From contig JBHGNT010000004.1 in NCBI GenBank assembly GCA_043228905.1, positions 10,602,001 to 10,666,000 of the forward strand: DNA of 64,000 nt. Reading direction: 5' to 3'. The notes below the pieces were generated by a model, which searched no databases, had not been told where the DNA came from, and was given only the letters and a program-made list of their open reading frames with translations. The position numbers and the translations under genes were made by a program. Source of the stretch: Azolla caroliniana (taxonomy: Eukaryota; Plantae; Polypodiophyta). Of the stretch, positions 481 to 46,540 are shown piece after piece. How positions within the stretch are numbered: position 1 is the stretch's first letter; every line of letters begins with the position of its first letter.

Positions 481-874
481 GCTAGGGAGGGGGAGAGAGA
501 AAGACAGGGAGGCGGCTTGTATAATACATAATGGATCATAATGGATCGTCTGAGAGAGAGAGAGGGAGGGAGGGAGGTTTCCAAACCGGTTCCCAAGCCA
601 GTTTAGGGATCGGTTTGGTTTGGTTAGGTTCAGGTTTGAGAACCCCAAAATGGTTTAGGCTTTTAACCGTTTTGGCTTGGATAAGGCCAAACTAGCTAAG
701 CCTAAACCGAATCGTTGCCGATACCTAGTGAGGGTCACAACCGCGAACTTTCTTGGTGGGGATTGCGTTGGTTTCTCGCTAACGCTACCGTTTGTGTCGT
801 GTTTTGGGTCAACCTCAAGTATTTTCCCTCTCATGATAGAAGAAGTCAAGTCGACCGCTTCACCTGCACTTCTT

Positions 875-1090
875 CGCCCGTTGGTGTTCCAATTCCCAAT
901 GAGAACCGCACATGGTCACTCACGCCCGTTGGTGTTCCAATCTCCAGTGAGGACTGCACATGGTCACTCATGCCCATTGGTGTTCCAATTCCCAATGAGG
1001 ACCGCACATGGTCGGTCATGTCCATTGGTATTCGTGTTTCCGTTGAGGACCACACATGGTCGCTCACGCCGGTCGGTGCTCCAATTCCCG
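875..1090. repeat. 48-bp tandem repeat, about 4.5 diverged copies, just upstream of the PPT of an LTR element
   Basis: Unit approx. CGCCCGTTGGTGTTCCAATTCCCAATGAGGACCGCACATGGTCACTCA. 16-aa periodicity in ORFs 677..1156 and 715..1128. Confidence 0.9.
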
Positions 1091-1614
1091 TTCACCCCTA
1101 CATCACGCTTTCGAAAAGGCGGTCGTAAAGGAGAGGATAATGTCATGACACAGTGACATCAAATACATTGTTGGTGAGGATTGAACCTACAACCTCACAT
1201 CAACAAGATGTCTTGCGCAACCATTTTGACATGACCATACATTTGCATATAATTGTGTAATATTCTATAGTGTATAGTATATTTCAGAATCAGAATATTC
1301 TAGCCGTTAGTATATTCTAGAGATATCGTATGGTATATTCTAGATTAATATATTCTAGAGATATTTCTCGAGTATATTCTAGAGATATTCAATCTTGGAA
1401 CTTGTATAAATACTTGTAACCTTGGTCCCTTTCAAGGGATTCAACACCACTCATTGATATATCAATCTAGTATTCTCGTTTCATGCTATATTGTCTCCTT
1501 CATCTATGTCTTCATGCTCTCCATAACTTCCTAAATGCATAATCTCATCACTCACAGCTTCTAGAGTTCCTAGCCTCGTCACTTTCAGTTCCACGTTCGT
1601 AGCTTTATGGATTG

Positions 1615-2033
1615 TGTTATTCTCTGACCGGACAAGGCCTAACACAAGGTGTCACGGAGACACTTCACCAAAGGGTGATTACGGCATAGGATTAAGATTC
1701 AACGATTACACCGACTTACGTAGGTTACACGATTAGAATGCTTTGGTTAATTACACGCGTAAGATATAACAGTAATTACAGAACGGAAATCAAGACAGAA
1801 GTATAAACATCATAAACTCTATTAATTATCCGCTGCGATTACAATGGGGTCCGGGCCTTTAAATAGGTTTCCGGCCCGTAGTACAAAACGGTGCCTATCG
1901 CACCTATTCGGGATCCGTCCGGATCTGGAACGGCATACCGTTTCCAGTCCGTCCGTCCACACTATGCTCATTTACAACCATATTTAATTAATTCCTTCAC
2001 TCCGTATTTTGGACTCCTTGCCGGCCGGTAACA
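1615..2033 (-). repeat. 3' LTR of Gypsy element (419 bp)
   Basis: TGTTATTC...GGTAACA; no difference from 10993-11411 found by eye. Confidence 0.97.
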
Positions 2034-2085
2034 CATGGCACGCCCGTGGGACAGTACCTTGTACGTCGAACCCTTCTCGGCCCCT

Positions 2086-4998
2086 TCATTGTTCACCCAA
2101 ATTGTCCAAAATACTTTGTTCAAGAATTTCCACTTGTTCTTCCGGTTGTGGTTGTTGTGGCTGTGCTTGCTGCTGCTGCTGTGGTTGTGGTTGGGACTGA
2201 GGCTGCTCCGGCTGCTCTACTTGCTGCTGCTACTCCGTTTGTTTCGCTGACTCCGGCATCTCCGTTTGACTGCTTCCGGTCCGGTCTCCTTCCAATAACG
2301 GTTCCTCATCACTGAGGTTGACCGTAACCGGTTCTCGTTCTTTCTCTCCCCGGATCCGGGACCTCTCGTAGCTTTCAAACTGGATCTGCGCCTCCAGCCT
2401 GTCGTCGTCCAGCTGAGCTACAAGTTGCCGGACTTGCTCTAGTTGGTCCTCTGCCAAGGCTTGAAAGTCTTCGGCTAGCTCATCTCTTATGCCGGTGAAG
2501 TCTTCGGAATTCAGCATATAGCAATCATCTCCCTCCTTCCGCCGGTTCTCTACGTCGGCCCGGAGCAATTGGAGTTCCGCCGCGTTCGTGGCCCACTTGG
2601 TCCACCATTTGACGGACACGTTGTCAATCAAGCTCTTGGTCTGGTTCAACCAGGCCCGCATGATATCCTGGATGCGACTTGCTCCCATTTGTGCTCTGCT
2701 TTCCACCACTTGTCGCTCCTCCTTCAACTGCTTGATGAGATTTGCCGTATCCTCCGCCTGCTCTCTGTAGCACGTCAGCTGCCCTTGATATGTCGTTTGC
2801 AGCCTCTGCAGTACCTCCGCCGCTCTTTCTTTTTCCGCCTGTTGTTGCCTGAGGAGCTCTGTCCGAACCTTCTCCGCCTCTTCCAACCGTCTTCTGTTTT
2901 CCGCTTGTTCCTTGGCGAATGCGGTTGCGGTCCGATCAACTGCTTGCCGGAGCTCATCCGTCCGTTCCTTGTGCTCCGTTTGCAACCGTTTATACTCCCG
3001 GTGCAAGTTCTCAAATTCCTCTGTTTTTTGTTTGAGCTTGCCGTTGATCTGGCGATGGTTCCGGTCTTCCCGGTCCTTTACCTGCCGGAGTTCCTCTTTC
3101 AGGCGCTCTACTTCTGTTTCGGTGTTCCTCCGGAGCCTGTCCTTCTCTTGCAGCATTTTCTCCTTTTCCTCCTTGAGCCGGTCGTACGCTTGGTGGCCTT
3201 TCCGTAAGCTCTCCTCGACTCGGCGTAGATTCTCAGCAGTCTTTTTGAGTTCTGTCTCCGCTGCCGTCTTCAACTCTCTTTCGCGGCTCCTCAGCGCTTC
3301 TTGGGCAGCTAGCTCATCCTTTAAGTCCGCAAGCTCTTGGGCTTGTGCCGCATTTCTTTCCGGAACGGTTTCCGTTGTCGGGGTCTGATTGCTATGTACA
3401 GGTTGATTTGACACTTTATTCTGTACATTGCCCGGAGTCACCGGTGCTTGGACTTGTGTTGTCAAAGCGAATTGAGCCATTTCCCTTGTGACCCTGTCCA
3501 AGTCTTGTTCAAGGCTCCGGATTCTGGACCGGGCCGTCTCTAGATCTACGGTTGTGACGAGCAACCGTTCCTGGTGCGCTCTCTCTTCCGCCTCTATATA
3601 CTCGACCGCTCCGGCGATTTGCTCACCTACCCACCGTAGCCACATGCTACTGGTGCCTTGCTGCTGTACTGGTCCTACTCCTTGGCCGCCGTGTGTGCTG
3701 GCTGGGCTCGCCGGCTGTTGAGTCCCGGTTCTCGCCGTCTCCGGAGCCGTTGGAATGACTTCTTCTATAGAAGTCGACAAGACCGGTTCCCTACGCACCG
3801 GTTCCGGTTCCTCCCTTGTGGTTTGCTCAGGTTGAGTTGGGGGCGTTTCTGCTTCTCGCGGGTACGACCGCTCCCCTCCTGTCTCGGCGGTCCTACTTCT
3901 TGACCGTCGTTGGAGGTGCTCTTCTGGCTCCTCCGTTTCCTCTTCCTGTGTAACGGCATGTTTCTGTGCCGTCAAGGGTTCTGGTTCCTTCTGTCCCGGT
4001 CGCCGTATGGTTATCTTAACGGGTCGAACCGGTGACACCTCCTCAGGTTCTGAGAGCCGTTTCTTCCCTTTCGTCGCCTTCGACGCCAGCAGCTGTTGTC
4101 GTTTGGACGCCGGCTTCGAGGTGCTTCCTTCCGATACTCTTGGCCGCTTCTTTGGCTGAACGGTCTCGACCGGCGGCACGAGCAATGTTACCCACTGAGC
4201 TACGGCATGCCACAGCTTCCGGCCCTCCTTGCCGTCCTTTCCTCGTACCATGTCGATTGCCACGCACAAACCGTCTGCAATCAACACCGGCCAATCCACC
4301 TTGGTCCCTTCATAGGTGGCTATGATCATCCCTGCCCAATTTTTTGGCATGACAGGGGGTCGGGGGTACACGTGGCCGTACTCATGGAGCACTCGAGCTA
4401 TCTCCCTGAACAGCGGATCTTCGCCGCCCTGCGTTCGATAGCCTTTGCCGGCAACAGAGTACTCACCGAAATATCGGGTGAGTTGCTCCGAGGTTGGATT
4501 ATCAATCTGAAAAATTCCTCCCTCCGGAAGGCCTGTTAGCGCACGGATCGCTTCCTCGGTAATGACTTCCTTGTCGAGCTCCTTGATGACCTGGTCGGCT
4601 TCTCTGTGCGGTGGTGCTTCCATGATGGCCAAGAACCCCTCCAGTCCGTGTTGCCTGAACCATTTCCTGGCCGCTTCCGACAGCGTTTGTGGTTCCATGT
4701 CTGCTTCGAGGTCGAGGGAAGATGGCGAGGTAGAGTGGTGATGAGAGTGAGAGCGAGAGAGAGAGCGTTCCGAACGTGGGGGTTCTCTGCGTGCAGGTTC
4801 GCGTTTGCTCAGCTTCCACTGCCTTGGTGCTTCTGTGCTTCTTGGCTCGCGAAATGAAAAGGTCTCCATGCGTTCTGCTTCTTCTTTGTGTGTTTTGGCG
4901 CCTTTTTCGAGCATGCACACGTCGTGTACCAATTTAGTATTAAGTAGCGTGGCGGCTCTTAAATGCCCACTTCGTACCTTTTTGCTCCTTGCTTTCAC
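2086..4998 (-). CDS. ORF3: extra sense-strand ORF of the Gypsy element (922 aa to a TAG at 2230, with a probable further Q/P-rich tail to 2086); globular domain, basic linker and long coiled coil
   Basis: 2.8-kb open frame between pol and the 3' LTR. The track start at 4998 is GTG; the first ATG is near 4914. The C-terminal half is E/K/R/Q-rich and heptad-like. Confidence 0.88.
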
Positions 4999-5082
4999 GT
5001 CCGTTCATACCTCGATTTTTAATGATTTCTTTTTTCTTTTTCTTTTTTTCTTTTTTTTTTTTTTAAATGACGGTATGTGATC

Positions 5083-8000
5083 TTACACATCCGTAGGTCC
5101 CTTCGGACCCTTACCGTTTTCCTTACGGGTTGCCGTGTCTTCCGTCGCCTCTGCTACGGGTTCCCCGTCGTCTTTTTCTTCCGTCCGTACCCTTCCGGGA
5201 CAGGATCCCGGTATAGTGCCGGTGAGCTGCATAAACGGGTTCTTTGGCATCGGTCCTTTATAGGGTTTTAGTCGAAATCCGTTCACCCACTTGCCTAGCA
5301 CTTCACCGGCAAGTGTCCCTATCTGATAGGACCCGTTGTATTCCCGTGTCAGCCAATACGGGCCTGTCCATCTGAACCGGAGTTTACCCGGCATCTTGCC
5401 CATCCTCGTTTGGAATACTAGAACTGGCTTTCCGATTTCGAACATCTTTTCGTTACCTTTCCGGTGACGGTCAACGAACGCTTTCCGTCGTCGTTGCTCC
5501 AGTTCCATGTGGAGGATGCTGGCCAGCCGTTGCTCCTCCAGTTCGCATAGTGCTGCTAGCCGCATTTCCTCCAACTTCTTTTCATTCAGCCGTTCCCGTA
5601 GTTGGATCCGTAAGCTTGGTACCTGAAACTCGACCGGCATGACCGCTTCTAAGCCGAATGCTAGCCGGAACGGCGTTGTCCGGATACTTGTTTTGTATGC
5701 CGTTCGGTACGCCCATAGCGCGCTATGGAGCTTTGTGTCCCAGTCCGTCCGGTTTTCATTGACAATTTTGCGGAGAATGTTCTGCAGCGTTTTGTTGGTG
5801 GACTCTGCTAACCCGTTCGCTTGTGGGTAGTACGGTGTGCTCCGTTTATGAACCACAGCATAGAACGTTGTTAAGCTTTCCACTACCTGGCCGAGGAAGT
5901 GCCCTCCTTGGTCGCTGATTAATTCAATCGGACATCCATATCGGCACCAAATGTTCTCGTACAGGAATTTTGCTGTGGATGACGCGGTATTGTCCCTCAA
6001 GGCCTTAGCCTCCACCCATTTAGTACAATAATCCGTTGCTACGATGACATAACGATTACCCGTTCTCATTGCCGGTGGCTTGAACGGTCCGACAAAATCC
6101 AACCCCCACTTCTGGAATGGCTCTAGTGGAAGTACCGGTTGGTGTGGCATCCGTGCTTGCTCCGTAGGCTGGCCCATTCGTTGGCATAGGTCACATTCCT
6201 TAGCATACTTGACGGCGTCTTTTAACGTCGTGGGCCACCATAAGCCGCTCTGCCATACTTTCCTTGCCGTCGCTTCCCCGGCATAGTGTCCTCCGGCAAC
6301 CCCACAGTGTGCTTCCCGTAAGATTACTTCTTTCTCGTCACTACGGACTGCCCGTCTCCATATTCCATCTGCTCCTTTGTGGTAGAGAGTGTCCCGTAAC
6401 AGACAGAAATTGCGGCTCTGCACCGCCAGTCGTTTCCTCTCGTCCCGGTTCATTTCCTCTGGTGGCAGGCCCGTGCTTAGGAACTGGTGCATGTTTGTCA
6501 GCCACCTATCTTCTAATGCCACTGTGTCGTCCGCTGCCGTTTCCGGGGTGATACGGAATAACTCTGCGTCCGGGAATTCATCCGCTACCCCGTCGCCTGG
6601 TTCTCCGGACTCTAACCGGCTCAGGTAGTCTGCTACGGCATGCTGGATACCGGGCCGGTGGAAAATCTCGAATTCGAACTCCTGCAACAGCAAGGTCCAA
6701 CGGGCCAACTTACCGGTCAGGGACGCCTTGGACACTAAGTACAGGAGCGCCGAGTGATCCACATGAAAGGAGAACTTCCTTCCTAATAGGTAATGACGAA
6801 ACTTTGTTACACTGTAGATCATGCCCAGGGCCTCCCGTTCCGTAGTCGAATAGTTCTTCTCCACTTGGGACAGCTTCCGGCTGGCGTAATATACCGGCCG
6901 GTACCATTTAGGCTCCGTAAGTTGCATTAAGGCGCTGCCGATAGCGATGTCGGACGCGTCAACGAACACGTGAAATTCCTTGCTCCAATCCGGAGGCTGC
7001 ACGACGGGTGCTTGCGACAAGAGTACCTTCAGGGCATTGTATGCCTTATCCTCCGTATCCGTCCATTGGAACGGTGTCCGATGTACCGCGGTGTGTAATG
7101 GTGTAGCCAAGTCAGCCAAGTGACGGAGCATCCGGCTGTGCCACCGGATCTGTCCTAAGAATCGGCTTAGTGCTTTGGCTGTTTTCGGCGCCGGTGCCCC
7201 TAGTATGGCGTTTACTTTATCCGGGTCGACCGCAATGCCCTCCTTACTTACAATGTGTCCCAGCAATATTCCACTTGAAACTCCAAAGATGCATTTTGCT
7301 GGGTTTAAGCTTAGCCGGTATAACCTACACTTTTCAAGGCATAACCGTAGGTGCTGCAAATGGTCTTTTCCCCGGCTATAGACTGCAAAATCATCCAGGA
7401 AAACTTGCATGAAGGCAGGAATGTATTCGCCGAAGATCTCCATGATGATTCGCTGGAACGTTGCTGGTGCCGTTTTTAGGCCGAACATCATGACTTCGGC
7501 CACAAACACCCCCCATTCGGTGACGAACGCTGTCTTCTCCTGGTCGTCCGGGTGCATCCGGATTTGATTGTAACCGCTGAACCCGTCTAGAAAGCTATAA
7601 ACTTCATGGCCGGCGACGGCATCCAGTACTCCATCCGTGAACGGAAGAGGGAATGCATCCGTAATTGTGGCTGCATTTAGTTTCCTGTAATCTACGCACA
7701 CACGGATTTTACCGTTCTTCTTGGGGACGACGACGATGGGGCTTAGCCACGTCGCTTTCTTTACCGGCCGGATGAAGCCCACTCTTAGGAGTTTGTCGAT
7801 TTCCTCCTTCACTTTGGCGGCGTAGTTGGGGTTCATTCGGTAACGTCGTTGCGCCACTGGTTTCGCGTCCTTGCCTAAGTGGATCTGATGCTGATATAAT
7901 TGAGGGTCCAGCCCTCGCATGTCCTCGTATGACCAGGCGAATACGTCGCGAAACTCCGTGAGAAGTTTGATCATCGCCGCTTTATCTTTCGGCTTCATTT

Positions 8001-8469
8001 CTTTGGCGATGTGAACCGGCTTTGATTCGTCCTTGCTTCCTAGGTTCACTTCGTCGAGCTGGGATGCTTTTACCCGTTGGGAAACGGCCATTTCCCGTTC
8101 CAACGCTTCATGTGCTTGCCGTAATTCCCGAATCGCATCTTTGTCTGGTTCGGCTTCGGTGTCGTCCCGCTGCGGCAAGTATGGCGCTACGGCTTCAGCT
8201 ACGTCAATCTCGAAGAGTGGTACGATCTTCGGGTGTTCCTCCAAGTACTGGGCTTCTTCGTCGTCTGCCAATCCTTCAAGCATGTTCACACATTCCGCAT
8301 ACAGCGGTGTGCATTCCTTCCCGTTGCTCGTCCGTGGTTGTGTTGGTACCCGGACCTTGGCTTTTCCGCGCCGGAAGGTAATCATATTTTTCCGCCAATT
8401 TTGCTTGATGTGTGCTGTTTTCAACCATGGTCTGCCCAGCAATAGTGGGTACGCGCCTTGCGCCTGTAG
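5083..8469 (-). CDS. Pol: reverse transcriptase, RNase H, integrase
   Basis: RT (CVDYRKLN, LDGFSGYNQI, MMFGLKTAPATFQR, FLDD). RH (VDASD, NYSTTERE, VDH, ADYLSR). INT (H..GH..C..C, GLDFVGP, SDQG, NGLAESTN). No chromodomain. Confidence 0.96.
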   Translation of the reverse strand, partial: LQAQGAYPLLLGRPWLKTAHIKQNWRKNMITFRRGKAKVRVPTQPRTSNGKECTPLYAECVNMLEGLADDEEAQYLEEHPKIVPLFEIDVAEAVAPYLPQRDDTEAEPDKDAIRELRQAHEALEREMAVSQRVKASQLDEVNLGSKDESKPVHIAKEMKPKDKAAMIKLLTEFRDVFAWSYEDMRGLDPQLYQHQIHLGKDAKPVAQRRYRMNPNYAAKVKEEIDKLLRVGFIRPVKKATWLSPIVVVPKKNGKIRVCVDYRKLNAATITDAFPLPFTDGVLDAVAGHEVYSFLDGFSGYNQIRMHPDDQEKTAFVTEWGVFVAEVMMFGLKTAPATFQRIIMEIFGEYIPAFMQVFLDDFAVYSRGKDHLQHLRLCLEKCRLYRLSLNPAKCIFGVSSGILLGHIVSKEGIAVDPDKVNAILGAPAPKTAKALSRFLGQIRWHSRMLRHLADLATPLHTAVHRTPFQWTDTEDKAYNALKVLLSQAPVVQPPDWSKEFHVFVDASDIAIGSALMQLTEPKWYRPVYYASRKLSQVEKNYSTTEREALGMIYSVTKFRHYLLGRKFSFHVDHSALLYLVSKASLTGKLARWTLLLQEFEFEIFHRPGIQHAVADYLSRLESGEPGDGVADEFPDAELFRITPETAADDTVALEDRWLTNMHQFLSTGLPPEEMNRDERKRLAVQSRNFCLLRDTLYHKGADGIWRRAVRSDEKEVILREAHCGVAGGHYAGEATARKVWQSGLWWPTTLKDAVKYAKECDLCQRMGQPTEQARMPHQPVLPLEPFQKWGLDFVGPFKPPAMRTGNRYVIVATDYCTKWVEAKALRDNTASSTAKFLYENIWCRYGCPIELISDQGGHFLGQVVESLTTFYAVVHKRSTPYYPQANGLAESTNKTLQNILRKIVNENRTDWDTKLHSALWAYRTAYKTSIRTTPFRLAFGLEAVMPVEFQVPSLRIQLRERLNEKKLEEMRLAALCELEEQRLASILHMELEQRRRKAFVDRHRKGNEKMFEIGKPVLVFQTRMGKMPGKLRFRWTGPYWLTREYNGSYQIGTLAGEVLGKWVNGFRLKPYKGPMPKNPFMQLTGTIPGSCPGRVRTEEKDDGEPVAEATEDTATRKENGKGPKGPTDV

Positions 8470-8994
8470 CTACAGCACGACAGCCGAGATGTGAAATGTG
8501 TGACCTCCTATGGTGACTTCCAATTTCCGTATTAAGCCCGTCGGCCGTACAGAGCTCGTATCCGCCATCCGTAGCCAGAACGGACATGGCTCCCATTCAT
8601 GTATACCCAAGGCATCACACGTGCGGAGGCTTATTACGTTCACCCCGGAACCTCCATCGATTACTGTGCCGGGAAGTTCGTGCCCTTTGACCATAGCTGT
8701 AATTACCGGACTACTAGTGTCCACCACCGTCGGTCCCTCCTCCGGATTCGAGAAGAGGACTGGTGCCGGTGGGGCTATACCGTCTGTCATGCCCGTTTTT
8801 AGTCCTTCCGTAAATCGCGGCACGAGCTGCAAGAGTCTTCCTAACGGCAACGTGATCTGACATTCTTGCAGTGCTTGCCATGTCTCGTTTTCTGGGTGGC
8901 TACCGCCGGCACTCCCTATGTTATTCGCCTTTTGCCGTTCCGCGTCCGCGACGTTCCTTTCATTGGCTTCCTTCACCCATTCCGTCGCCTGTTT
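8470..8994 (-). CDS. Aspartic protease segment of gag-pol (same frame as gag and pol, bounded by two in-frame stops)
   Basis: VIDGGSGVNVI active-site motif; the LLGRPWL motif follows the TAG at 8470-8472. Confidence 0.88.
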   Translation of the reverse strand, partial: KQATEWVKEANERNVADAERQKANNIGSAGGSHPENETWQALQECQITLPLGRLLQLVPRFTEGLKTGMTDGIAPPAPVLFSNPEEGPTVVDTSSPVITAMVKGHELPGTVIDGGSGVNVISLRTCDALGIHEWEPCPFWLRMADTSSVRPTGLIRKLEVTIGGHTFHISAVVL

Positions 8995-10941
8995 TCATAT
9001 GGCCTCTTGTGTTTCCCACTCTTTGGCCATGCCTTTCGACCGTGTGGTTACTTGTTGTACATCCGTAACTTCCGGAACCACCATATTAACTGTTGGTCGT
9101 TTCTCGTAGCTCTTTACCGGGCACTGGTTACTGTAGTGGCCTTCCTGCCTGCAGTAGTAGCAGTACTCTTTACGGGTATTGCTGGATTCAGCATTGCTGG
9201 TAGCCGGAGTCGGTCCCGTAGTGAGTGGTGCGTTCTGTGTCGGTTGGCTCCTTGGGGTTCCATGTTCCGGGTCCCTAGTGTGACCACCTTTCTTGAAATT
9301 ACGTTTCTTATTATTCTTATTTTTATTTCGGTAGTCCGGTCGTGGTGGATCGTAAAATCGGCCGTAGTCCTCCTGGTGCCTTCGGTAACCAGGGGAATGG
9401 TCTCTGTCGTATTGCTCGTGTCGTCTGTTGGGCTCCCGATAATGGTCCGATCGCTCATACCGGTCGTAGTTATCACGCCGATTCCCGTACCGGCCATCAT
9501 TCTCTTGCCTGTCTCCGTACCGGACATCCTGTGCCGGTCGGTACCGGTTCATTTTTTGCCAACGATCTTCATCTTCGTCTTGGCTGCTTCTTGGCTCGAT
9601 CCGTCGGACGGGTGGTGCTTGTCGGTTTAACAGGTTATACTCGCACCGGTCCGTTGTATGACTCTTGGATTGACAAATCACACACTGAGTGCGCATGGTG
9701 CACTCTACTGCCGAGTGTCCGGCATTCAAGCAGATTGTGCATTGAATTGCCTGCCGGAACCGGAGATCTTCCTCGGTGGGTAACGCCCGTTGCAGTGTTC
9801 CCAGCGTAAGCCATGAGCTTGACTTTTCCATTTCTCTGACCCGGTCAATGACCTGGTCGATGGTGCATCCTCGAAAGTCGATCACCGTACACACCGTGCG
9901 TAACGGTTCCCGGAGTGCATTTAAAAATATCGTCCGTAATTCCTCCTCCGGGGGTGCACGGGCAAGCTGGCTATGCATTCGTTGGAAACGGATGACGAAT
10001 TGGGGAATGCTTTCCCCTGCCTCCTGCCGGATCGTATAAAACAGGCCCACCATTGTCGTCTGGTCGACCTCCTTGTGGAAAAAATGCAAGAATTTTGCTT
10101 TTAATTCTGCAAAGGTTGTGATGGTCGCCGGGTCCTGCGTCCGCCGCCATCGTGTCGCCGGTCCCTCCAACGTGACTCCGAATTCCGCTATCTTCGAGCG
10201 TTCTTCTTCCTCCGGTGTCATTCGCTGGGACGTGTGATTTGCTTCCCACGTCTGCTCGAAGTCATGAACATGCGCTTCCGCGTCCGGATCATCGCGATAC
10301 TTTGAATATTGGAACGGCATGTCGTCGTCCAGTATTAGGCCGCGGTTTAGTGGCGTTTGTTGATATCTTTCCGGTTTTCTCTCCGGTTCCACTTCCGGTT
10401 CTTTTGCCGGTGCTTTTTCCGGTTCCTTCACCGGCTCTTCTTCCGGTACCTTTGCCGGCTCTTTCGTTGGTGTCGGTGGCTTTGCTTCTTCCACTTCCGG
10501 TGTTGGTGGGTTGACGGCTTCCGTTTGCGGTTCCGGATAGCCCTGGTTGAGTGGTTCCGGTTCTGGAGTCGGCACGGTATCCGACCCGTCGTCCTCCGGG
10601 CCGCCGGGGGTATCGTTGCTGCTCCGGTAGTTCGTGTGCACGTTGTATCCCCCTTCGGAATCCGATTCGTAGGCTGAAAAGGCTTCTGCCTCGTTTTCTC
10701 CGCTTGCCAGCGCCTCGAGGAGGCGTTCGGTTTCCCGGAGACTACTTAGACTGCTTTCGTCGTCCTGGTCGCGAGTTTGCCGTAACCGAAGGGATTCCTC
10801 CGCGACTCTCCGGATCTCGTTGGAGAACGAACGATCCGAGCGAATTTCGTGCGCTGCTTGCTGGAAAGTCTCACGCCGTCTTTGCCGTTCGGCGAGGCGT
10901 CGAGCTCGGTCTGTAACCAAGTCGTGCGTTGGTCTAGTCAT
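8995..10941 (-). CDS. Gag with three CCHC zinc knuckles
   Basis: Retrotransposon gag core (LEGPATRW..F.ELKAKF..IRQEAGESIPQFVIRF). Knuckles CTICLNAGHSAVEC, CVICQSKSHTTDRC, CYYCRQEGHYSNQC. Confidence 0.92.
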   Translation of the reverse strand: MTRPTHDLVTDRARRLAERQRRRETFQQAAHEIRSDRSFSNEIRRVAEESLRLRQTRDQDDESSLSSLRETERLLEALASGENEAEAFSAYESDSEGGYNVHTNYRSSNDTPGGPEDDGSDTVPTPEPEPLNQGYPEPQTEAVNPPTPEVEEAKPPTPTKEPAKVPEEEPVKEPEKAPAKEPEVEPERKPERYQQTPLNRGLILDDDMPFQYSKYRDDPDAEAHVHDFEQTWEANHTSQRMTPEEEERSKIAEFGVTLEGPATRWRRTQDPATITTFAELKAKFLHFFHKEVDQTTMVGLFYTIRQEAGESIPQFVIRFQRMHSQLARAPPEEELRTIFLNALREPLRTVCTVIDFRGCTIDQVIDRVREMEKSSSWLTLGTLQRALPTEEDLRFRQAIQCTICLNAGHSAVECTMRTQCVICQSKSHTTDRCEYNLLNRQAPPVRRIEPRSSQDEDEDRWQKMNRYRPAQDVRYGDRQENDGRYGNRRDNYDRYERSDHYREPNRRHEQYDRDHSPGYRRHQEDYGRFYDPPRPDYRNKNKNNKKRNFKKGGHTRDPEHGTPRSQPTQNAPLTTGPTPATSNAESSNTRKEYCYYCRQEGHYSNQCPVKSYEKRPTVNMVVPEVTDVQQVTTRSKGMAKEWETQEAI

Positions 10942-10974
10942 CCATTACCGTCGTTCGCTGCGAGAAAGCAGGAA

Positions 10975-10986
10975 TCGTGGTCGCCA
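10975..10986 (-). promoter_or_regulatory. Primer binding site TGGCGACCACGA (tRNA-Arg-like)
   Basis: 6 nt inside the 5' LTR boundary; begins TGG; complementary to the GUGGUCGCCA 3' end typical of tRNA-Arg(UCG). Confidence 0.7.
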
Positions 10987-10992
10987 AAACTG

Positions 10993-11411
10993 TGTTATTC
11001 TCTGACCGGACAAGGCCTAACACAAGGTGTCACGGAGACACTTCACCAAAGGGTGATTACGGCATAGGATTAAGATTCAACGATTACACCGACTTACGTA
11101 GGTTACACGATTAGAATGCTTTGGTTAATTACACGCGTAAGATATAACAGTAATTACAGAACGGAAATCAAGACAGAAGTATAAACATCATAAACTCTAT
11201 TAATTATCCGCTGCGATTACAATGGGGTCCGGGCCTTTAAATAGGTTTCCGGCCCGTAGTACAAAACGGTGCCTATCGCACCTATTCGGGATCCGTCCGG
11301 ATCTGGAACGGCATACCGTTTCCAGTCCGTCCGTCCACACTATGCTCATTTACAACCATATTTAATTAATTCCTTCACTCCGTATTTTGGACTCCTTGCC
11401 GGCCGGTAACA
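10993..11411 (-). repeat. 5' LTR of Gypsy element (419 bp)
   Basis: Direct repeat of 1615-2033; adjacent PBS. Confidence 0.97.
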
Positions 11412-11624
11412 GATTGTAGTCTGTTATCCGTGCTCCGTCGTAGTCCGCGGGTGGTGTGTACGTGACAGCTACTAGCTACTAATTGGTATAGATTTGGATC
11501 GGTACAACTATCCGGATTCATCTTTTCCTTAATAATTAATAACTACTATTTCCATAATATTCATCTGATCCATCTCTTCCCTGTCCACACCTCTCCTCCA
11601 GATTATACTCTAAAGGCCAACAAT

Positions 11625-11855
11625 TGAGCTTGAGGGGGAGTGTTGAGCGAGCAAGCTCAACATGATCCGAATCGACTGAATAAGCCGGAGCCGTATCGTA
11701 ATCCAGAACGAAGAACCGGATCGGTGTTTGGAATAGGGAGCCAGATCGGCATATGGATCTCAGTGTAATCGGGAGGCTGTTAGAGGCCTATAATCCTCGC
11801 CTAGTATATAGGCATGTTTTTAGGGGTTAGTGTTAGAGCTAAGTTATGAGCATTG
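11625..11855 (+). mobile_element. Copia PPT plus partial LTR (family related to the 34272 element)
   Basis: TTGAGCTTGAGGGGGAG followed by TGTTGAG..CAAGCTCAACA. Shares TTAGTGT.AGAGCT.AGTTATGAGCATT with the 39759 LTR. Cut by the LTR starting at 11856. Confidence 0.75.
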
Positions 11856-13046
11856 TGTTAGGATCGGAACCGGCCACAACCGGTTTCTCGTATACGTATT
11901 CGGGTGCAAAGAAATGAGCGAGATAGTGCACAGATAGAAAAACGAGAAGGAAGAAAACACAAGCACATAGACACAAGATTTAACGTGGAAAACCCGAAAG
12001 GGAAAAAATCATGTGGAGTCCTCGAACTCCGAACATATCACAATACGGTAGGAGGAATATACAATAAGACACTCGAAGGCAACGACCTTGAGTTCTTCTT
12101 CGTCAACAGACGGTTACAAAGTTATAACTCTGTTCTCACTCGCCTACTGACACTCACTCTCAGTTACTAAGGCCATTACCCACTGTGTAACTTATTACAA
12201 CTATATTAATTCAACCCACTATAAAGTTTGCCCTAGTTGTATTTATACTTATACAACTCTCTAGTTATTTACATACATGGCCCACAAAGGGGCACATTTA
12301 GACTATTTACATTTATGGTCTCCCGATTTTGGTTGACTCATTGACTCCATCCAATTTGGTTCATTCTCTTCTTCCCATCCGGAGGGACATGTTTCCCAAC
12401 AAACTCCCCCTTCACTCTGGCGTGGGGTACTTTACCAATCTGACTCTTTGTCGGCACGCACCCAACCTCACCTCCAATAACACCTTCGTCAACATGTCTG
12501 ACCCGTTCTCCTTCGTGTGGATCCTTACTAGAGCAAACTCCTTTTCTTCTACTCGCTCTCGGAGGCAATGGTATCTTCTTTGGATGTGCTTGGTCCTCGA
12601 GTGGTAGACAACATTCTTCGCAAGGTGGATGACACTCTGGTTATCACAATGGAGTCAAAATTCCTCTTGCCGAATTCCCAACTCTCCAATGAACTCCCTC
12701 ATCCAAATTACTTCCTTGCCAAGTTCCGTTGCGGCCATGTACTCGGCTTCCATGGTTGACAATGCCACATCCTTCTGCAACCTCGACTGCAACGAGACAA
12801 CTCCCCCTGCATAAGTCATCACGTATCTGGATGTAGATCGACTAGTATCTACATCAGCCGACATGTTCAAATCAATATAACCTTCCAATGTGGGGTTACC
12901 CAAGCTGAATCAAAGACACACATTTGAGGTGCCTCTTAGGTACCAAAGTATCCACTTCACAACAACCCAATGCTCTCTTCTGAGATTGTTCATATATCGG
13001 CTAACCACTCCGAATGCATACGCAATGTTTGGCCTAGTGCAAACCA
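11856..13046 (-). mobile_element. Ty1/Copia 3' fragment: RT/RNase H remnant, PPT and 3' LTR (11856-12401)
   Basis: MVCTRPNIAYAFGVVSRYM and SRLQKDVALSTMEAEYMAATE. PPT GAAGGGGGAG next to an LTR ending TTTCCCAACA on +. Confidence 0.85.
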
Positions 13047-14061
13047 TTGCCGAGAGTTGTCAGCAAATTCATGCACAACCCATGCCGATCACATTGGAAT
13101 GTAGTCAAACATGTATTCAGATACCTGGTGGGCACAAAAGACCATGGCATCGTCTTTAGTCCAAACAAGCACCCAGGCGTAGTCGGTTACATCAACTTAG
13201 ACTTTGTCGGTTGTGTGGATAGTCGAAAGTCAACAACCAGATACTGCTTCAAATTTGGCAATGGACCAATTTCGTGGAAGTTGAAACTTCAGGAGTGCAC
13301 GACCACTTCAACGACCGAGGCTGGATACGTAGTTGCGCCTGACACGGCAAAAGAAGCTCTATGGCTCGGTCGACTAGCATGTACGTTTCGACAAGATGAC
13401 CCCAATTCGGCTCCAGTTGTCTACAACGACAATCAGGGAGTTGTTGCTCTGTCAAAGACTCTGGTTCATCACAAAGCCTCCAAGAATATCAACGTTCAGT
13501 ATCACTTTGTTCGAGATTGTGTAACTTCCAAGAAGCTCGGCCTCGAGAAGATCTCCTCAACCGACAACATAGCAGACGGGATGACCAAGTGTCTCGTAGC
13601 TTATCGATTTCGGTCACTTCTACACCAGATGGGCTTAAGGAGTAATTAATCTGATTGGTAGGACGATTTTAGACAATCATCATCAATAGTTCGAGGGTCG
13701 GCTTCAGCTCTTCCAACCCCAGCCTACTCGGCTTTTTGTTCTCGGATCTTGTCGACTCGAATAAAGTTACCGATTTGTTCAACAATCTTGTATAAATCTA
13801 TCACCTTGTTTATTCTCTTATAGATTTTTCTTTTGTGTATACGCCACGACCATTACGGGGGAGTGTCGAATACAAGTGTTTAATGGTCGTATTCACATTG
13901 TCCCTTGGAAAAACTAGGTTTAGGAAAATTTTGTAAATATGTCAAAGGGTAGTTGCCCTAGCTCAATTAGTATATAACTGACTTTGTAACCTAGCTCATA
14001 ATGTTGTTGCCTCCATTTGTTCTAACTTTGAGTTCAAATAATACAATTACATCTTGTGTGC

Positions 14062-17466: not shown

Positions 17467-18479
17467 TAGAGACTCTCCTCCGTCATCAGAATCTTTTCCT
17501 CTTCTCTTCTTCGAGTTCTGGTTTCTTTTTTCCGCTGCAGAGGATGAAGGAATTCGCCCCTGCAGAAGGTATGATACTCTCTCTCTCTCTCTTTCTGTCT
17601 TTTGGTACCTTTCTTTGCCACGTCTACAAATTTAGATATGAAGAAGAAGAGGAATGAAAGAGGAAAGAAGAAGTAGAAAAAGAAGAATAAAAGCAATAGA
17701 AGCTGCCAACATTAGGTCCTATTCCAATTTAGAGAAATACGAAAGGAGGAAAAGAACAAAAAAACCGAGAAAAGAGGCTCCTTGTGATTGTACGTAAGAG
17801 AATGAGAAGAAGAAGAAGAAGAAGCTCTAGCATGAGGTCCCGTTTAAATTTAGAAGAGAAGAAGATGAAAAAGAAGAAGAAGAAGAAGAAAGATGAGGGA
17901 AGTAAGAAGTTGCAACATAAGCAAGAGGATGAGAAGAAGAAGAAGAAGCTCTAGCATGAGGTCCCGTTTAAATTTAGATGAGAAGAAGAAGAAGGAGAAA
18001 TATGCGGGAAGGAAGAGGTTGCAACAGAAGGTGTCAATTTGAATATACTTAAGCTAAACATGTCTCAATATCTTCATTTATGCTTAAAAGTCGTGCCCGT
18101 CAATATGCATTAGAGAAGAAATTAAAATCTCTGATGCTTCGTTCTGAGAATTTTTTATACCTGTATTTAGGTTAATGTGTCGGTTTGTTCTCTCTCAAGT
18201 CTAAGGAGATGCAGCATATCAGTTTGTTTCTTCTACAGTCGTAATGATGATACATTATATTAGTTTGTTTCTCCTCTTATCTAAAGGGAACATTGTATAT
18301 ATCCGTTTTGTTGGGGGCATTTAACAATCCATAGGTAGGGGATCTGTTTGGGGTATTATACTTGAATTCTTGTTTTAATCCCTCGTAAATGACCTAATCT
18401 ATTTCAATCTCTTCCAGTTTTTGGTAAGGTCATTGAAGAAGGCTGACATTAAAGCTTGAGAATTTGTTTATGATCCAAC

Positions 18480-21459
18480 ATGCAGAAGAATTCATATAGC
18501 AACAAAAATTCAATGGAGACATTGACCTTATGCCTTTCATCATCCAAACGAGATCAAGGCCAAGAGGTTCAGGAAGCAGCAAGGCTGGGTCTCGAGAGTG
18601 CACATCGACTTGTATATATGATCTCACAACAACAAGAGCATCAATACTTATCAGAAGATAGTAGACTTACTGCCAATGAAGTCATCTCTAAATTCAAGAA
18701 AGTTGTGGGTCTATTAAGCCGCAAAGGCCATGGAATAGTCAAGAGAGGTCCAATGAAACCAAATGGATTACCATCTGAAAGTCTTGAGGATAGATTCGTA
18801 GGAAACCTTCATTGCCGATCAGATTCTATCAATGCAGCTCATGATTCAGGTTCTTCAGGTAACAAGATGGCAAGCATGCGAAACATAGGTCTCGAGAATG
18901 GGTTTGTGCAGAGTATGAATGACCAGTTTGATTCAATTAATCCTCCTCATGATTCAGTTTCTTTGGACAATAGGGGTATTACACCTAATGTAGGGCTCGA
19001 TGACGAGTTGTCAAGAGGTATTAACGGACGGTTTGGTTTGGTCAATGCACCTCACAGCTTGGTTACTTTGGATAACAAGGTTTTCACAAGAACTGCAGGT
19101 CTCAATGATGGATTCACAAGAGTTGTCTGTGGCCGTTTTGATTCAACCAATGCACCTCATGATTCAGCTTCTTCAGACAATAAGAGGGTGTTTATACCTA
19201 ATGTTGGTCTGGAAGATGGACTCACAGGAGGTATCAATGGCCGATTTGATTCAACCAATGCACCTCATGACTCGGTTTCTTTGGATAATAAAAGGGTGTT
19301 CACACGAAAAGTAGGTCTGGCGGATGGGTTGACTAGAGGTATTAATGGACAACTTGATATGACAAATGCACTTAATGGCTCAGTTTCTGCAGATCAGATG
19401 GTGTACAAGCCTAATATAGACCAATCTATGCTGACTCCATTGTCAGGCGGAGGCATGGATGCCTTAATAAAGTATCACACACAATTGCTTAGACATCAGT
19501 TAATGCTATCTCAACAACCGACCATATATCCCTCTCAGACACCGGGTGATGTTGTAATGCCTCCATATTTTGCTATGGAGAACTCGGTGGCATGTAGTCC
19601 ACTTTCTTCAGCAAGGTCATTCTTGTCTTCTCTCAGCATGGATGGCAGCATATCAACCGATCACCAGCTTCTTCATCAATCGTGCAGTCAGTTGCGAGAA
19701 AGAAAAGTCACTCCCTCAAAGAGTAAATGTTTTGGTAAGGGAGATGAAAATGGAGGGAAATGCTCGATGAGTGGACGATGCCGTTGCTCTAAGAGGAAGT
19801 AAGGATTTTTAAAATGAGATAATGGCTAGAAGGTGCCACTTTGTGAGTAATTACTTATATAGACTTTGTTATGTTTTGGGACATTGAGATTTTTCAATCT
19901 TTCTTTAGGAAATCGAGAGTGAAACACATTATAAAAGTTCCGGCTATCAGCAACAAATTGGCTGATATTCCACAAGATGACTTCTCCTGGAGGAAGTATG
20001 GGCAGAAGCCGATCAAAGGGTCTCCACATCCAAGGTACTTTTTTGCTGTTTAACTTTGTCCTTTATATGCAATGTGTATTTTCTGACCTAGAAAGGGTGT
20101 CCATGTCCACGGTACTTTGTTGTTGTTTAAGTTTGTCCGTTGTGTAATGTGTATTTGTGACCTAGAAAGCTGTTTTTTGCAATGCATTGCCCCACCATCG
20201 AGTCTTAGAGAAGCGTCATGCCTCATTCAGTAGCTGCAAATGTCAAAGGTTTGGCACAATATAAAAAGGATTTATATTGAAGTTTCTGTCTTTGTAATGT
20301 GTATACCTGTCAACTAAGTAGTTTTGTTGTTCTTTTATCCTTCATATTACTTCTTCTTTGCAACAGTCATTTTTTAAGAGTCCATATATCTGACAATGTT
20401 GCATTATCAAAGCTTTGATGTGATCTATAGACTCGCAAGATGTTTTTCAGAAGCGAGCATATATATTTTCCTCAATAGTTGCATTATTGAAGCTTTGGTT
20501 GATGTGTTGTATATTGCAAATTGTTTTGTTATGTTCTTTTATCTGCCTATGCACTTTTATTTTACATCAATGTTTTCAAACTTTTGAGTGTCCAAAATTG
20601 CTAGTCACATTCACATTGAGATTATTTCGCTTGTTTAGAAACTACGCATGCCTACTCTACTTGCTTCCTATGGTACATGACTTAAGTTTGATATTTCTCT
20701 TGTTGAACAATCACACACCCCTAGTTCCTGCTTCCAATTATATGTGCCTACTGTGCTTGCTTCCTATGGTACATGACTTCTGGTTTGAGATTTAGCTAGT
20801 TGGCAAATTGTGTATGCCTACTTTTGTTTCTTAGACTTTTTGTCTGAGATATCACTTGTTTGATAGTCATCATGTGACCAGTCCTTGCAATTTCATTTGG
20901 GATTTGAGATTTCGATTCTCCTAATATCGTGCATGCCAACATTATAAGTAGCGAATTAGTAATTCGTCTCATAAATACCAGTTGTGCTAAAGCTGGGCCA
21001 TTTGAATATCCACTTTTTGACACAATGCAACGGACGGATGAGACATGGTCATGGTTGCAACTTGCAAAAATACAAAAGAGATGGTTGGTAATGGCATTTG
21101 AAGAGATGGGCCATTTGAAGAGATGGAATGGGCAGAGAGAGAAGAGAGAGAGAGTGATGGATGGGGAAGACATGGGATGGGGTGTATAGAAAAGTTGTAT
21201 GCAATTTGTCAGCAATTGAAAATTTGAACCAAAAAGTCATGTACCATAGGAAGGTTTTGGGGTTTACCTAGACCCTATATTGAAGCTTTGTTTTTACAGG
21301 GGTTACTACAAATGCAGCAGCATCCGTGGTTGCCCAGCAAGAAAGCATGTGGAACGTTCATTAGACGAGCCAACCATGTTGATTGTTACATATGAAGGTG
21401 AGCACAACCATCCTCGAATCGTGCCAGGCGGTGGAGGATTAGTGGTTCATCCTCCTTGA
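18480..21459 (+). CDS. WRKY: Group IId WRKY transcription factor; exons 18480-19798, 19909-20034, 21300-21459
   Basis: VQEAA..GLES, CaM-binding-like [11 protein letters not shown], zinc cluster [26 protein letters not shown]|GYYKC..C..HNH. GT-AG junctions keep frame, and the conserved PR intron is present. Confidence 0.95.
18783..19424 (+). repeat. Six in-frame 105-108 bp (35-36 aa) repeats in WRKY exon 1
   Basis: Consensus [36 protein letters not shown]. Confidence 0.92.
20760..21253. mobile_element. MITE-like fold-back element in WRKY intron
   Basis: Terminal inverted repeat CTTCCTATGGTACATGACTT / AAGTCATGTACCATAGGAAG, with imperfect pairing over about 60 bp. An extra TIR copy lies at 20664. 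Confidence 0.65.
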
Positions 21460-24833: not shown

Positions 24834-25279
24834 TCAGTCGTCATCTTCATGCTCCTCATTGATAGCTTCGGATGCGACTTCCTCATAGTCCTTCTCGAGC
24901 GCGGCGAGGTCTTCGCGAGCCTCGGAGAACTCACCTTCCTCCATGCCTTCGCCAACGTACCAGTGGACGAATGCGCGCTTGGCGTACATGAGGTCGAACT
25001 TGTGGTCGATTCGGGAGAAGACCTCAGAGACGGCGGTGTTGTTGCTGATCATGCAGATGGCACGCTGGACTTTGGCAAGGTCGGCTCCGGGGACAACCGA
25101 GGGGGGTTGGTAATTGATTCCACACTTGAAGCCAGTTGGGCACCTATATATATATATATATATATATCAACTTATTAGTTAGTATCATGAACCAACAACA
25201 TACATACATACATACATACATACTGATACTGATACTGATACATATATATATAGTGATATACATGTTGTACATACATACA

Positions 25280-25315
<36 letters not shown>

Positions 25316-25946
25316 TATACATACTGATACTGATACTGATACTGATACATAATATATACTGATTGATATACGTACATGTTGTTGGTACATACATAGATGT
25401 ATACATATATATGTATGTGGCATACCAGTCGACGAATTGGATGGTGCGCTTGGTCTTGATGATACCGATGGCTGCATTCACGTCCTTGGGGGTGACGTCG
25501 CCCCTGTACATGAGGCAGCAGGCCATGTATTTGCCGCGCCTGGGGTCGCACTTGGCCATCATGTTGGACGGCTCGAAGACGGAGTTGGTGATCTCGGGCA
25601 CCGAGTGCTGCTCGTGGTACGCCTTCTGCGCCGATATGACGGGCGCGTAGGAGGAGAGCATGAAGTGGATGCGCGGGTACGGCACCAGGTTCGTCTGGAA
25701 CTCCGTCACGTCCACGTTCAGCGCCCCCTCGAAGCGCAGCGACGTGGTGAGCGACGATATGATCTGCGATATCAGCCGGTTCAAGTTGGTGTACGTCGGC
25801 CGCTCGATGTCCAGGGAGCGCCGGCAGATGTCGTAGATCGCCTCGTTGTCCAGCAGCACCGCCACGTCCGTGTGCTCCAGCAGCGAGTGCGTCGACAGCA
25901 CGCTGTTGTACGGCTCCACCACCGCCGTCGACACCTAACCCCATGA

Positions 25947-45900: not shown

Positions 45901-46540
45901 AAGAGTTGTTATGACATTGACTACCATTAATTGTAGGCGATTAGGACCCAAAAGGATTTGTTTTTTAAGCTCAAATGCAGGTTCCCCTGGACAAAGTTCC
46001 ATATAAGATCGCCAATAAAGAGCATATGTTTTGCCTTGTTGCATCCCAGGGCAATATATGATGACAAAGTCGAAATGAGTCAAAAATTGCCCCCACCGGG
46101 CTTGTCGCCGACTCAAGACTCGAGCATTTTGGAAATATGTCAGGTTCTTATGATTGTTGTAAACAATGATCTGCTGAGAAGAACCTTCTAGAAAATGTCG
46201 CCATTTTTGAAAAGAATTCACAATTGCAAGAAGTTCATTGTCAGGGATCTTGTAGTTGATCTCTACAGCTTCAAACTTTCGGGAATGAAAGGTGACAGGG
46301 TGTAGCTGTCCATCATCTCCAGTCTACGATAGGACACTCCCTAGTGCAAAATCTGATGCATCGGCTTCAAGGATAAAGCGTTTTGTTGGGTCGACATGTG
46401 CTAAGATAGGTGCCGTTGTAAATGCTCGTTTTAAGCTTTCGAATGCCTAAACTGCATTTGAACTCCATATAAATGGCTGATTTTTGTGTGTGAATTGAGT
46501 GAGCGGAAGCACGACCTTGGAATAATCTTTAATAAATTTT

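What the first reader, a model, noticed from the sequence alone, without database searches (positions are those of the whole stretch)
2086..4998. Large non-env ORF3 in a young Gypsy element: conserved globular domain, NLS-like linker, ~400-aa coiled coil
Seen: a >900-aa open sense ORF at the env position, separated from pol by an A-rich tract. It has no convincing transmembrane helix. It has basic patches (KKRPRV, KGKKR), a long coiled-coil-like half and a poly-Q/P tail. The motifs ITEEAIRALTGLP and KVDWP recall the plant mobile domain or Athila-type extra-ORF proteins. Known: PMD proteins (MAIN/MAIL1) affect TE silencing, and some transposons encode anti-silencing proteins (VANC). Inference: a nuclear accessory factor, such as a silencing antagonist or integration tether. 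It is the best protein-level candidate for an undescribed system here.
Basis: partly seen in the sequence, partly recalled or inferred. Interest (0 to 1): 0.72.

Follow-up and report, generated by a model that had tools for sequence, protein, structure and literature searches.

The report
Retrotransposon extra gene resembles anti-silencer VANC21
A recently active plant jumping gene carries a conserved extra protein whose predicted shape resembles VANC21, a known transposon protein that blocks host silencing, so it likely helps these elements stay switched on.

Summary
The frame is open for 924 codons (2233-5004, minus strand), then a premature stop at 2230-2232 cuts off the Q/P tail. It is the third gene of a 9.8-kb Ty3/Gypsy element with identical LTRs, occurs in many related families, and is under purifying selection (pN/pS of shared variants about 0.3). 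It has no transmembrane helix and no Pfam match. Two AlphaFold models of the 180-aa domain each gave one clear structural hit among 48,161 chains: the VANC21-DNA complex (Z 6.5 and 6.0, about 168 residues, next hit 2.5 or less). Published work links VANC to the MAIN/PMD fold. The best reading is a VANC/PMD-fold, DNA-binding anti-silencing accessory protein; the fold match is middling and the function is untested. Separately, these elements have a tRNA-Arg(UCU)-like hairpin motif in place of the polypurine tract, which this scan noted before on other DNA of this genome. I add genomic footprints: mature tRNA sequence joined to the start of 5' LTRs (two clear events, one probable), as expected if a tRNA primes the plus strand.

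The parts
1610..1614 (.). 5-bp target site duplication, left copy
   Evidence: same 5 bases at 11412-11416
1615..2033 (-). 3' LTR, 419 bp, TG...CA
   Evidence: 0 differences from the 5' LTR
2036..2075 (-). tRNA-Arg(UCU)-like 3' motif with inserted hairpin, ending CCA two bases before the LTR, in place of a polypurine tract; likely plus-strand priming site
   Evidence: host tRNA match; 29 of 30 family loci; covarying hairpin; no purine run of 10 or more in 300 nt upstream of the LTR; tRNA footprints
2086..2229 (-). Q/P-rich tail with conserved acidic C-terminal 'ILD' motif, cut off in this copy; terminal stop at 2086-2088
2230..2232 (-). premature stop in this copy of ORF3
   Evidence: in 0 of 15 aligned sister copies
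2365..2694 (-). conserved C-terminal block (aa ~771-880, W...AAELxxLRADxENR)
   Evidence: shared by families 25-35% identical; shared-variant pN/pS 0.06-0.17
2695..3654 (-). predicted helical / coiled-coil region (aa ~451-770)
   Evidence: composition and heptad test; shared-variant pN/pS 0.07-0.38
3655..4149 (-). low-complexity linker with basic patches (aa 286-450); nuclear signal predicted only by eye
   Evidence: weakest constraint
4150..4698 (-). globular domain (aa 103-285), predicted VANC21/PMD-like fold
   Evidence: AlphaFold pLDDT 90.6; VIA-align to 9lnk_A Z 6.5, rmsd 3.8, 169 aligned
2233..5004 (-). ORF3 open frame, 924 codons stop to stop; in-frame ATGs at 4914, 4869 and 4698
   Evidence: ATG in 29, 30 and 30 of 30 loci
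5026..5064 (-). A-rich spacer between pol and ORF3, variable in length
5083..8469 (-). pol: RT, one RNase H, integrase; no chromodomain or second RNase H hit
   Evidence: Pfam
8470..8994 (-). protease part of gag-pol, bounded by in-frame stops in this copy
8995..10944 (-). gag with zinc knuckle
   Evidence: Pfam PF03732, PF00098
10974..10986 (-). primer binding site, 13-nt complement of tRNA-Arg(UCG) 3' end
10993..11411 (-). 5' LTR
11412..11416 (.). target site duplication, right copy

Best explanation
ORF3 is a conserved accessory gene of a Ty3/Gypsy lineage whose N-terminal domain is predicted to have the VANC21/plant-mobile-domain fold, and it likely binds the element's own DNA in the nucleus to counter host silencing. 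Shown: the ORF, its spread across families, purifying selection, lack of a membrane helix. Predicted: the fold. Inferred from VANC21 and MAIN: nuclear import through the basic linker, oligomerisation through the coiled coil, sequence-specific DNA binding, and recruitment of a host chromatin factor through the conserved C-terminal block or acidic tail, which would keep cognate LTRs transcribed.
For: Two models (pLDDT 90.6 and 94.2) of domains 40% identical each hit only VANC21-DNA (9lnk_A) at Z>=5 among 48,161 chains: Z 6.5, rmsd 3.8, 169 aligned, and Z 6.0, rmsd 3.7, 168 aligned; the next rows are 2.4 and 2.5. The one hit is itself a plant transposon accessory protein. Atlas feature neighbours include ATHILA and Transposase_32 clusters (0.85, 0.84; lead only). 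VANC resembles MAIN/PMD structurally, and VANC21 and the Athila domain are predicted to oligomerise through coiled coils (PMC13547354, passages and section 10; passages). pN/pS of variants in 4 or more of 30 copies is 0.28 (transitions) and 0.35 (transversions), with no stops in that class; family 2 domain 0.12. 303 relatives at E<=0.001 with conserved basic positions K187, K221, 223, 262.
Against: Z 6-6.5 is below the level (about 8, higher for helical folds) that the tool calls safe; identity is 7-10% and rmsd near 3.8. The two models share most alignment rows, so they are not independent. No Pfam hit for the protein at E<=1 or to PMD, DUF1985, ATHILA or Transposase_32 for 78 relatives at E<=0.1. 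A shared fold shows no function: MAIN/MAIL1 promote TE silencing (PMC5418596). C-to-T changes are still enriched at CG and CHG in these copies (about 2.2-fold over CHH), so they are not free of methylation-type decay. I found no obvious short repeated target motif like those of VANC targets (VANC motif biology recalled).
Confidence: 0.45

Rival explanations
1. The fold is VANC/PMD-like and binds DNA or chromatin, but it tethers the integration complex or acts as a plain transcriptional activator rather than opposing silencing.
For: Same structural evidence. Pol has no chromodomain hit, so a separate targeting factor is plausible (inference).
Against: Target duplications and flanks differ among copies with no evident preference (not tested statistically). 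The closest characterised TE protein of this fold is an anti-silencer.
Confidence: 0.2
2. The VANC21 match is a coincidental helical arrangement; ORF3 is a functional protein of another kind, for example a particle scaffold or transport adaptor built on the coiled coil.
For: Middling Z, 7-10% identity; no profile support; the coiled coil and C-terminal block are as constrained as the domain.
Against: The hit covers over 90% of the domain, stands about 4 Z units above all other chains twice, and is a plant transposon protein among 48,161 chains.
Confidence: 0.22
3. ORF3 is a cofactor of the unusual replication, helping to recruit or anneal tRNA-Arg(UCU) at the plus-strand site.
For: ORF3 ends 10 bases from the motif in this element, and ORF3 homology lies just upstream of the motif in 23 of 30 genome loci and 41 of 66 metagenome loci with enough flank.
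Against: Co-occurrence follows from shared ancestry; no RNA-binding fold was matched.
Confidence: 0.08
4. ORF3 is an env-like membrane glycoprotein, or a neutral passenger.
For: It sits at the env position.
Against: No hydrophobic helix (max 1.27); purifying selection; 10 of 30 loci keep an uninterrupted frame of 966-1011 codons.
Confidence: 0.03

Closest known systems
VANC21 of VANDAL21 (Mutator-like DNA transposon, Arabidopsis; PDB 9lnk; described in PMC13547354 and bioRxiv 10.64898/2026.08.24.746577, passages)
   Same: Predicted fold over about 168 residues (9lnk_A 305-533); transposon-encoded accessory protein; coiled-coil part.
   Different: Carried by an LTR retrotransposon; 7-10% identity; no DUF1985 hit; no function shown. 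VANC is called dicot-specific in PMC13547354.
Plant mobile domain proteins: Gypsy-encoded PMD-A and host MAIN/MAIL1 (PMC5418596, bioRxiv 10.1101/2024.09.27.615353, passages)
   Same: Extra ORF of a Gypsy element; fold linked through VANC.
   Different: No PF10536 hit; domain of about 180 aa followed by a long linker, coiled coil and a C-terminal block of its own.
Athila ORF1 (PF03078) / Transposase_32 (PF20167) extra ORFs (PMC6317226 section 13; PMC11728184 passages)
   Same: Extra ORF in a non-chromovirus element without a second RNase H; weak Atlas feature neighbours.
   Different: No Pfam hit in the protein or 78 relatives; the link is a lead only.
Canonical LTR retrotransposon replication, tRNA at the PBS and PPT before the 3' LTR (PMC10886601 introduction, PMC6317226 background)
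   Same: tRNA-complementary PBS, TG...CA LTRs, 5-bp duplication.
   Different: No PPT; a tRNA-Arg(UCU)-like hairpin motif sits there, and tRNA sequence is found joined to 5' LTR starts.

Membership tests
VANC anti-silencing proteins | VANC21-like fold of the DNA-binding region | tested here: met
   Z 6.5 and 6.0, 169 and 168 aligned, sole hit at Z>=5; middling Z on predicted models
VANC anti-silencing proteins | DUF1985 sequence profile | tested here: not met
   no Pfam hit
VANC anti-silencing proteins | encoded by a VANDAL/Mutator DNA transposon | tested here: not met
   encoded by a Gypsy LTR element
VANC anti-silencing proteins | sequence-specific DNA binding and loss of methylation on cognate copies | not testable with these tools
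   only an indirect, confounded mutation-spectrum test
Plant mobile domain (PF10536) | match to the Pfam profile | tested here: not met
Plant mobile domain (PF10536) | PMD fold | tested here: inconclusive
   indirect, through VANC21 and published VANC-MAIN homology; no PMD model compared directly
Athila ORF1 / Transposase_32 | match to PF03078 or PF20167 | tested here: not met
   Atlas scores 0.85 and 0.84 are under the tool's 0.9 line
env-like proteins | transmembrane helix | tested here: not met
   max hydropathy 1.27 and 1.31 in two family members
Athila lineage (non-chromovirus, OTA) | no chromodomain, no additional RNase H, extra ORF present | tested here: met
   Pfam on pol; definitions in PMC6317226 sections 9, 13
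Athila lineage (non-chromovirus, OTA) | RT/RH/INT phylogeny groups with Athila | not tested
   no reference set was on hand
canonical LTR retrotransposon | polypurine tract before the 3' LTR | tested here: not met
   8 purines in the last 15 bases, no run of 10 or more in 300 nt

The most novel reading that the evidence does not exclude
An LTR-retrotransposon lineage that encodes its own VANC-type, sequence-specific anti-silencing protein at the env position and primes both DNA strands with host tRNAs; its ORF3 would be an outlying branch of the VANC/PMD fold, invisible to sequence search, that bears on where that fold came from.
Probability: 0.33. Interest if true: 0.88.

Novelty: new variant of a known kind. 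Interest (0 to 1): 0.68.

Why it matters
The function of the extra ORFs at the env position of plant Gypsy elements is an open question (PMC6317226 section 13 asks whether they have any). A structural link to VANC21, which was solved with its DNA, gives a concrete hypothesis and a small soluble domain to assay. Many coexisting families with diverged LTRs and diverged ORF3 allow a test of protein-target co-evolution. The anti-silencing factors named in the passages I read belong to DNA transposons. Whether the PMD fold began in Gypsy elements or host genes is called 'fully open' in PMC5418596. The tRNA footprints at 5' LTR starts are genomic evidence for plus-strand priming by a tRNA, which I did not find described in searches.

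Tried and rejected
1. 'ORF3-only satellite family': a 3.5-kb element with LTRs, a long PBS and only ORF3 first looked like a family. One search showed 1 of 30 copies has that form; the other 29 have pol upstream. It is one deletion derivative. Rejected, and corrected in the notebook. 2. Programmed read-through of the gag-pol and ORF3 stops: not shared by sisters. 3. Foldseek against PDB and viral models: no match at E<=0.001, and VANC21 was not among the rows shown. Sequence search of PDB chains: best E 0.47. 4. Expression: no RNA holder listed; three contig sets of uncertain type were laid and say nothing on transcription or splicing. 5. Methylation proxy: CG/CHH ratio of singleton C-to-T changes 2.2 (this family), 1.7 (family 2), 3.4 (Copia control). 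Confounded by changes made before insertion; inconclusive. 6. tRNA footprints: of 11 matches (8 distinct events) I dropped L319, L320, L321, L325 and L326 as ordinary PBSs read backwards or unassigned. For the same reason the 1772 matches (control 12) are an upper bound. 7. Rfam: no match at 1600-2300. 8. Self-pairing of the 3' motif with this element's PBS: they match different tRNAs. 9. One search found nothing because my spacer length was wrong; one search was a script slip. 10. The VANC21 structure paper (PMID 41260640) and PMC9016345 are not held; the one supplement opened for PMC6317226 held chromodomain logos only. No complex prediction was run.

Full report
The element. The finding lies in a 9.8-kb LTR retrotransposon on the minus strand: LTRs at 10993-11411 and 1615-2033, identical over 419 bases, with a 5-bp duplication. 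Gag, protease, RT, one RNase H and integrase are in one frame, with no chromodomain hit. By the features in PMC6317226 (sections 9 and 13 read) this looks like a non-chromovirus, Athila-like element; I did not test the phylogeny. This copy has stops at 8995-8997, 8470-8472 and 2230-2232, found in 0 of 8, 1 of 8 and 0 of 15 aligned sisters, so it is a damaged young copy.

The ORF. The frame runs 924 codons from 5004 to 2233; 47 more codons follow the premature stop, up to a stop at 2086-2088 shared by 29 of 29 sisters. In-frame ATGs at 4914, 4869 and 4698 are kept in 29, 30 and 30 of 30 loci; several distant families also have a Met just before the domain, so 4698 is a candidate start (inference). 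Layout: globular domain aa 103-285, low-complexity basic linker to about 450, helical and coiled-coil region to about 780, a conserved W-rich block, and an acidic tail ending in an 'ILD' motif. There is no hydrophobic helix.

Spread and selection. A DNA search scored 40 of 2283 candidates and gave 45 matches, 36 of them near full length at 94-100%. Protein searches scored 150 of about 4500 candidates each and showed further families at about 75% and 38% identity. Of 30 loci, 10 keep an uninterrupted frame of 966-1011 codons. Among these 30, pN/pS (transitions/transversions) is 0.61/0.50 for singletons, 0.36/0.25 for variants in 2-3 copies and 0.28/0.35 for 4 or more; integrase gives 0.11/0.31 in the last class. 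Stops number 11, 4 and 0 in the three classes. The linker is least constrained (0.96/0.45). In family 2, shared variants give 0.12 in the domain, 0.37 in the linker and 0.18 in the coiled coil (30 copies). These are counting estimates, not codon models.

What the domain is. Pfam gives nothing for the protein, and no PMD, DUF1985, ATHILA or Transposase_32 hit for 78 of the 150 listed relatives that I scanned. The Atlas, queried with a 96%-identical stored homologue, lists unnamed clusters first and then ATHILA (0.85) and Transposase_32 (0.84), which are leads only. AlphaFold2 on a 76-row alignment gave pLDDT 90.6. VIA-align over 48,161 chains returned VANC21 bound to its target DNA (9lnk_A) at Z 6.5, rmsd 3.8, 169 residues, 10% identity; next Z 2.4. 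A second family member, 40% identical, modelled at pLDDT 94.2, returned the same single hit at Z 6.0, rmsd 3.7, 168 residues; next 2.5. The tool warns that Z under 8 can reflect a common arrangement, and the two runs share alignment rows. In favour: the match covers nearly the whole domain, stands alone, and is a plant transposon accessory protein. PMC13547354 (passages, section 10) reports VANC-MAIN structural homology and predicted coiled-coil oligomers for VANC21 and the Athila domain; bioRxiv 10.1101/2024.09.27.615353 (passages) links PMD-C to DUF1985 of VANC; PMC5418596 (passages) places PMD-A in angiosperm Gypsy elements; PMC11728184 (passages) reports Transposase_32 in a sunflower Athila extra ORF. 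I could not see the VANC21 structure paper or the EMBO J paper on VANC evolution. In searches (listings) and the passages read I did not find a VANC-fold protein described for such an element; subscription papers and closed supplements may hold one.

Likely mechanism. ORF3 is likely made from its own message (not shown), enters the nucleus, oligomerises through the coiled coil, binds cognate element DNA with the VANC-like domain and recruits a host chromatin factor, keeping the family transcribed. Only conservation and fold prediction are in hand. I put the fold relationship at about 0.7 and anti-silencing function at about 0.45. Against: MAIN-type PMD proteins promote TE silencing; copies still show CG/CHG-biased decay; no repeated target motif stood out.

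Second feature: no polypurine tract. I noted this; later look-ups showed the scan had reported it many times on other DNA of this genome, and those notes are not independent support. The PBS matches tRNA-Arg(UCG) over 13 bases. Before the 3' LTR, 2036-2075 reads like the 3' half of tRNA-Arg(UCU) with CCA, lacks one base of the tRNA and has a hairpin inserted, then 2 bases, then the LTR. It is in 29 of 30 family loci (one could not be anchored) and in other LTR groups. In 72 metagenome stretches, all from one accession series, 68 of 74 matches are followed by two bases and TGT. On 47 distinct rows of the 3-base-loop class, two hairpin pairs show double-sided changes in 20 and 22 rows, and 92% of cells pair against 34-50% for slid controls (rows were picked by pattern and are related).

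Footprints of the primer. Nine loci have an LTR end followed by about 29-73 bases of tRNA-Arg(UCU) complement, so related families reverse-transcribe this tRNA. A search for the complete 18-base tRNA end plus CCA, two bases and TGT gave 11 matches, 8 distinct events. After dropping five, L316-L318 (one event, locally duplicated) have 54 bases of mature tRNA, CCA and the family's two-base spacer joined to the start of an LTR of this very family; in L317 the Arg(UCG) PBS and gag follow, and the element has its ordinary motif at the 3' LTR. L322/L323 (one event) join an LTR end to exactly 18 tRNA bases, the family-2 spacer and an LTR start. L324 is a probable third. These carry the base that the element's own motif lacks and no hairpin, so they come from the tRNA. 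This is what an unremoved plus-strand tRNA primer would leave (the 18-base stop at m1A58 and the 2-base trimming by integrase are recalled textbook points). A template switch from the motif to a packaged tRNA is the main alternative. Searches found no description of this route; PMC10886601 (passages) describes tRNA-like sequence inside LTRs of elements that keep a PPT.

Verdict. A real, selected accessory gene with a predicted VANC/PMD-like fold, in a Gypsy lineage with unusual priming. New variant of a known kind; interest 0.68.

Noticed in passing
window 2036-2075 and G000 loci L316-L318, L322-L324: tRNA-Arg(UCU)-like motif replaces the PPT; mature tRNA sequence is joined to 5' LTR starts in two clear events and one probable.
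   Followed up: yes
L307-L315: Nine loci with an LTR end followed by about 29-73 bases of tRNA-Arg(UCU) complement, two spanning the whole tRNA; several then jump into pol or ORF3, deleting gag. Likely tRNA read-through with template switching.
   Followed up: partly
L104 (G000:C1:21120000-21123486): Single 3.5-kb derivative with 457-bp LTRs (99.6% alike), long PBS and only ORF3; 1 of 30 copies of family 2.
   Followed up: yes
G000:C11:693798-703402, C22:1428856-1504823, C4:19551136-19587072: Clusters of tRNA-Arg(UCU)-like 3' ends, many about 700 bases apart; tandem tRNA arrays or a repeat.
   Followed up: no
window 11600-13700: Fragment of a Copia-like element (LTR-like stretch and RT/RNase H-like frames) next to the 5' LTR; read by eye.
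   Followed up: no
window 828-1115: Tandem repeat of about 48 bases, 5-6 copies.
   Followed up: no
window 18474-19802 (+): 442-codon frame with six 105-108-base repeats; its ends recall a WRKY-type transcription factor N-terminus (recalled), but Pfam gave no hit.
   Followed up: partly
window 25188-25934 (-): Tubulin exon (PF03953, E 1.7e-35).
   Followed up: partly
window 35553-36326, 44838-45908, 47074-51181: Further Copia-like and Gypsy-like frames, read by eye.
   Followed up: no
window 1615-11411: CpG observed/expected is 1.08 in the element and 1.33 in the LTR against 0.57 in 12-34 kb flank; a young Copia gives 0.97, so this is not specific.
   Followed up: partly
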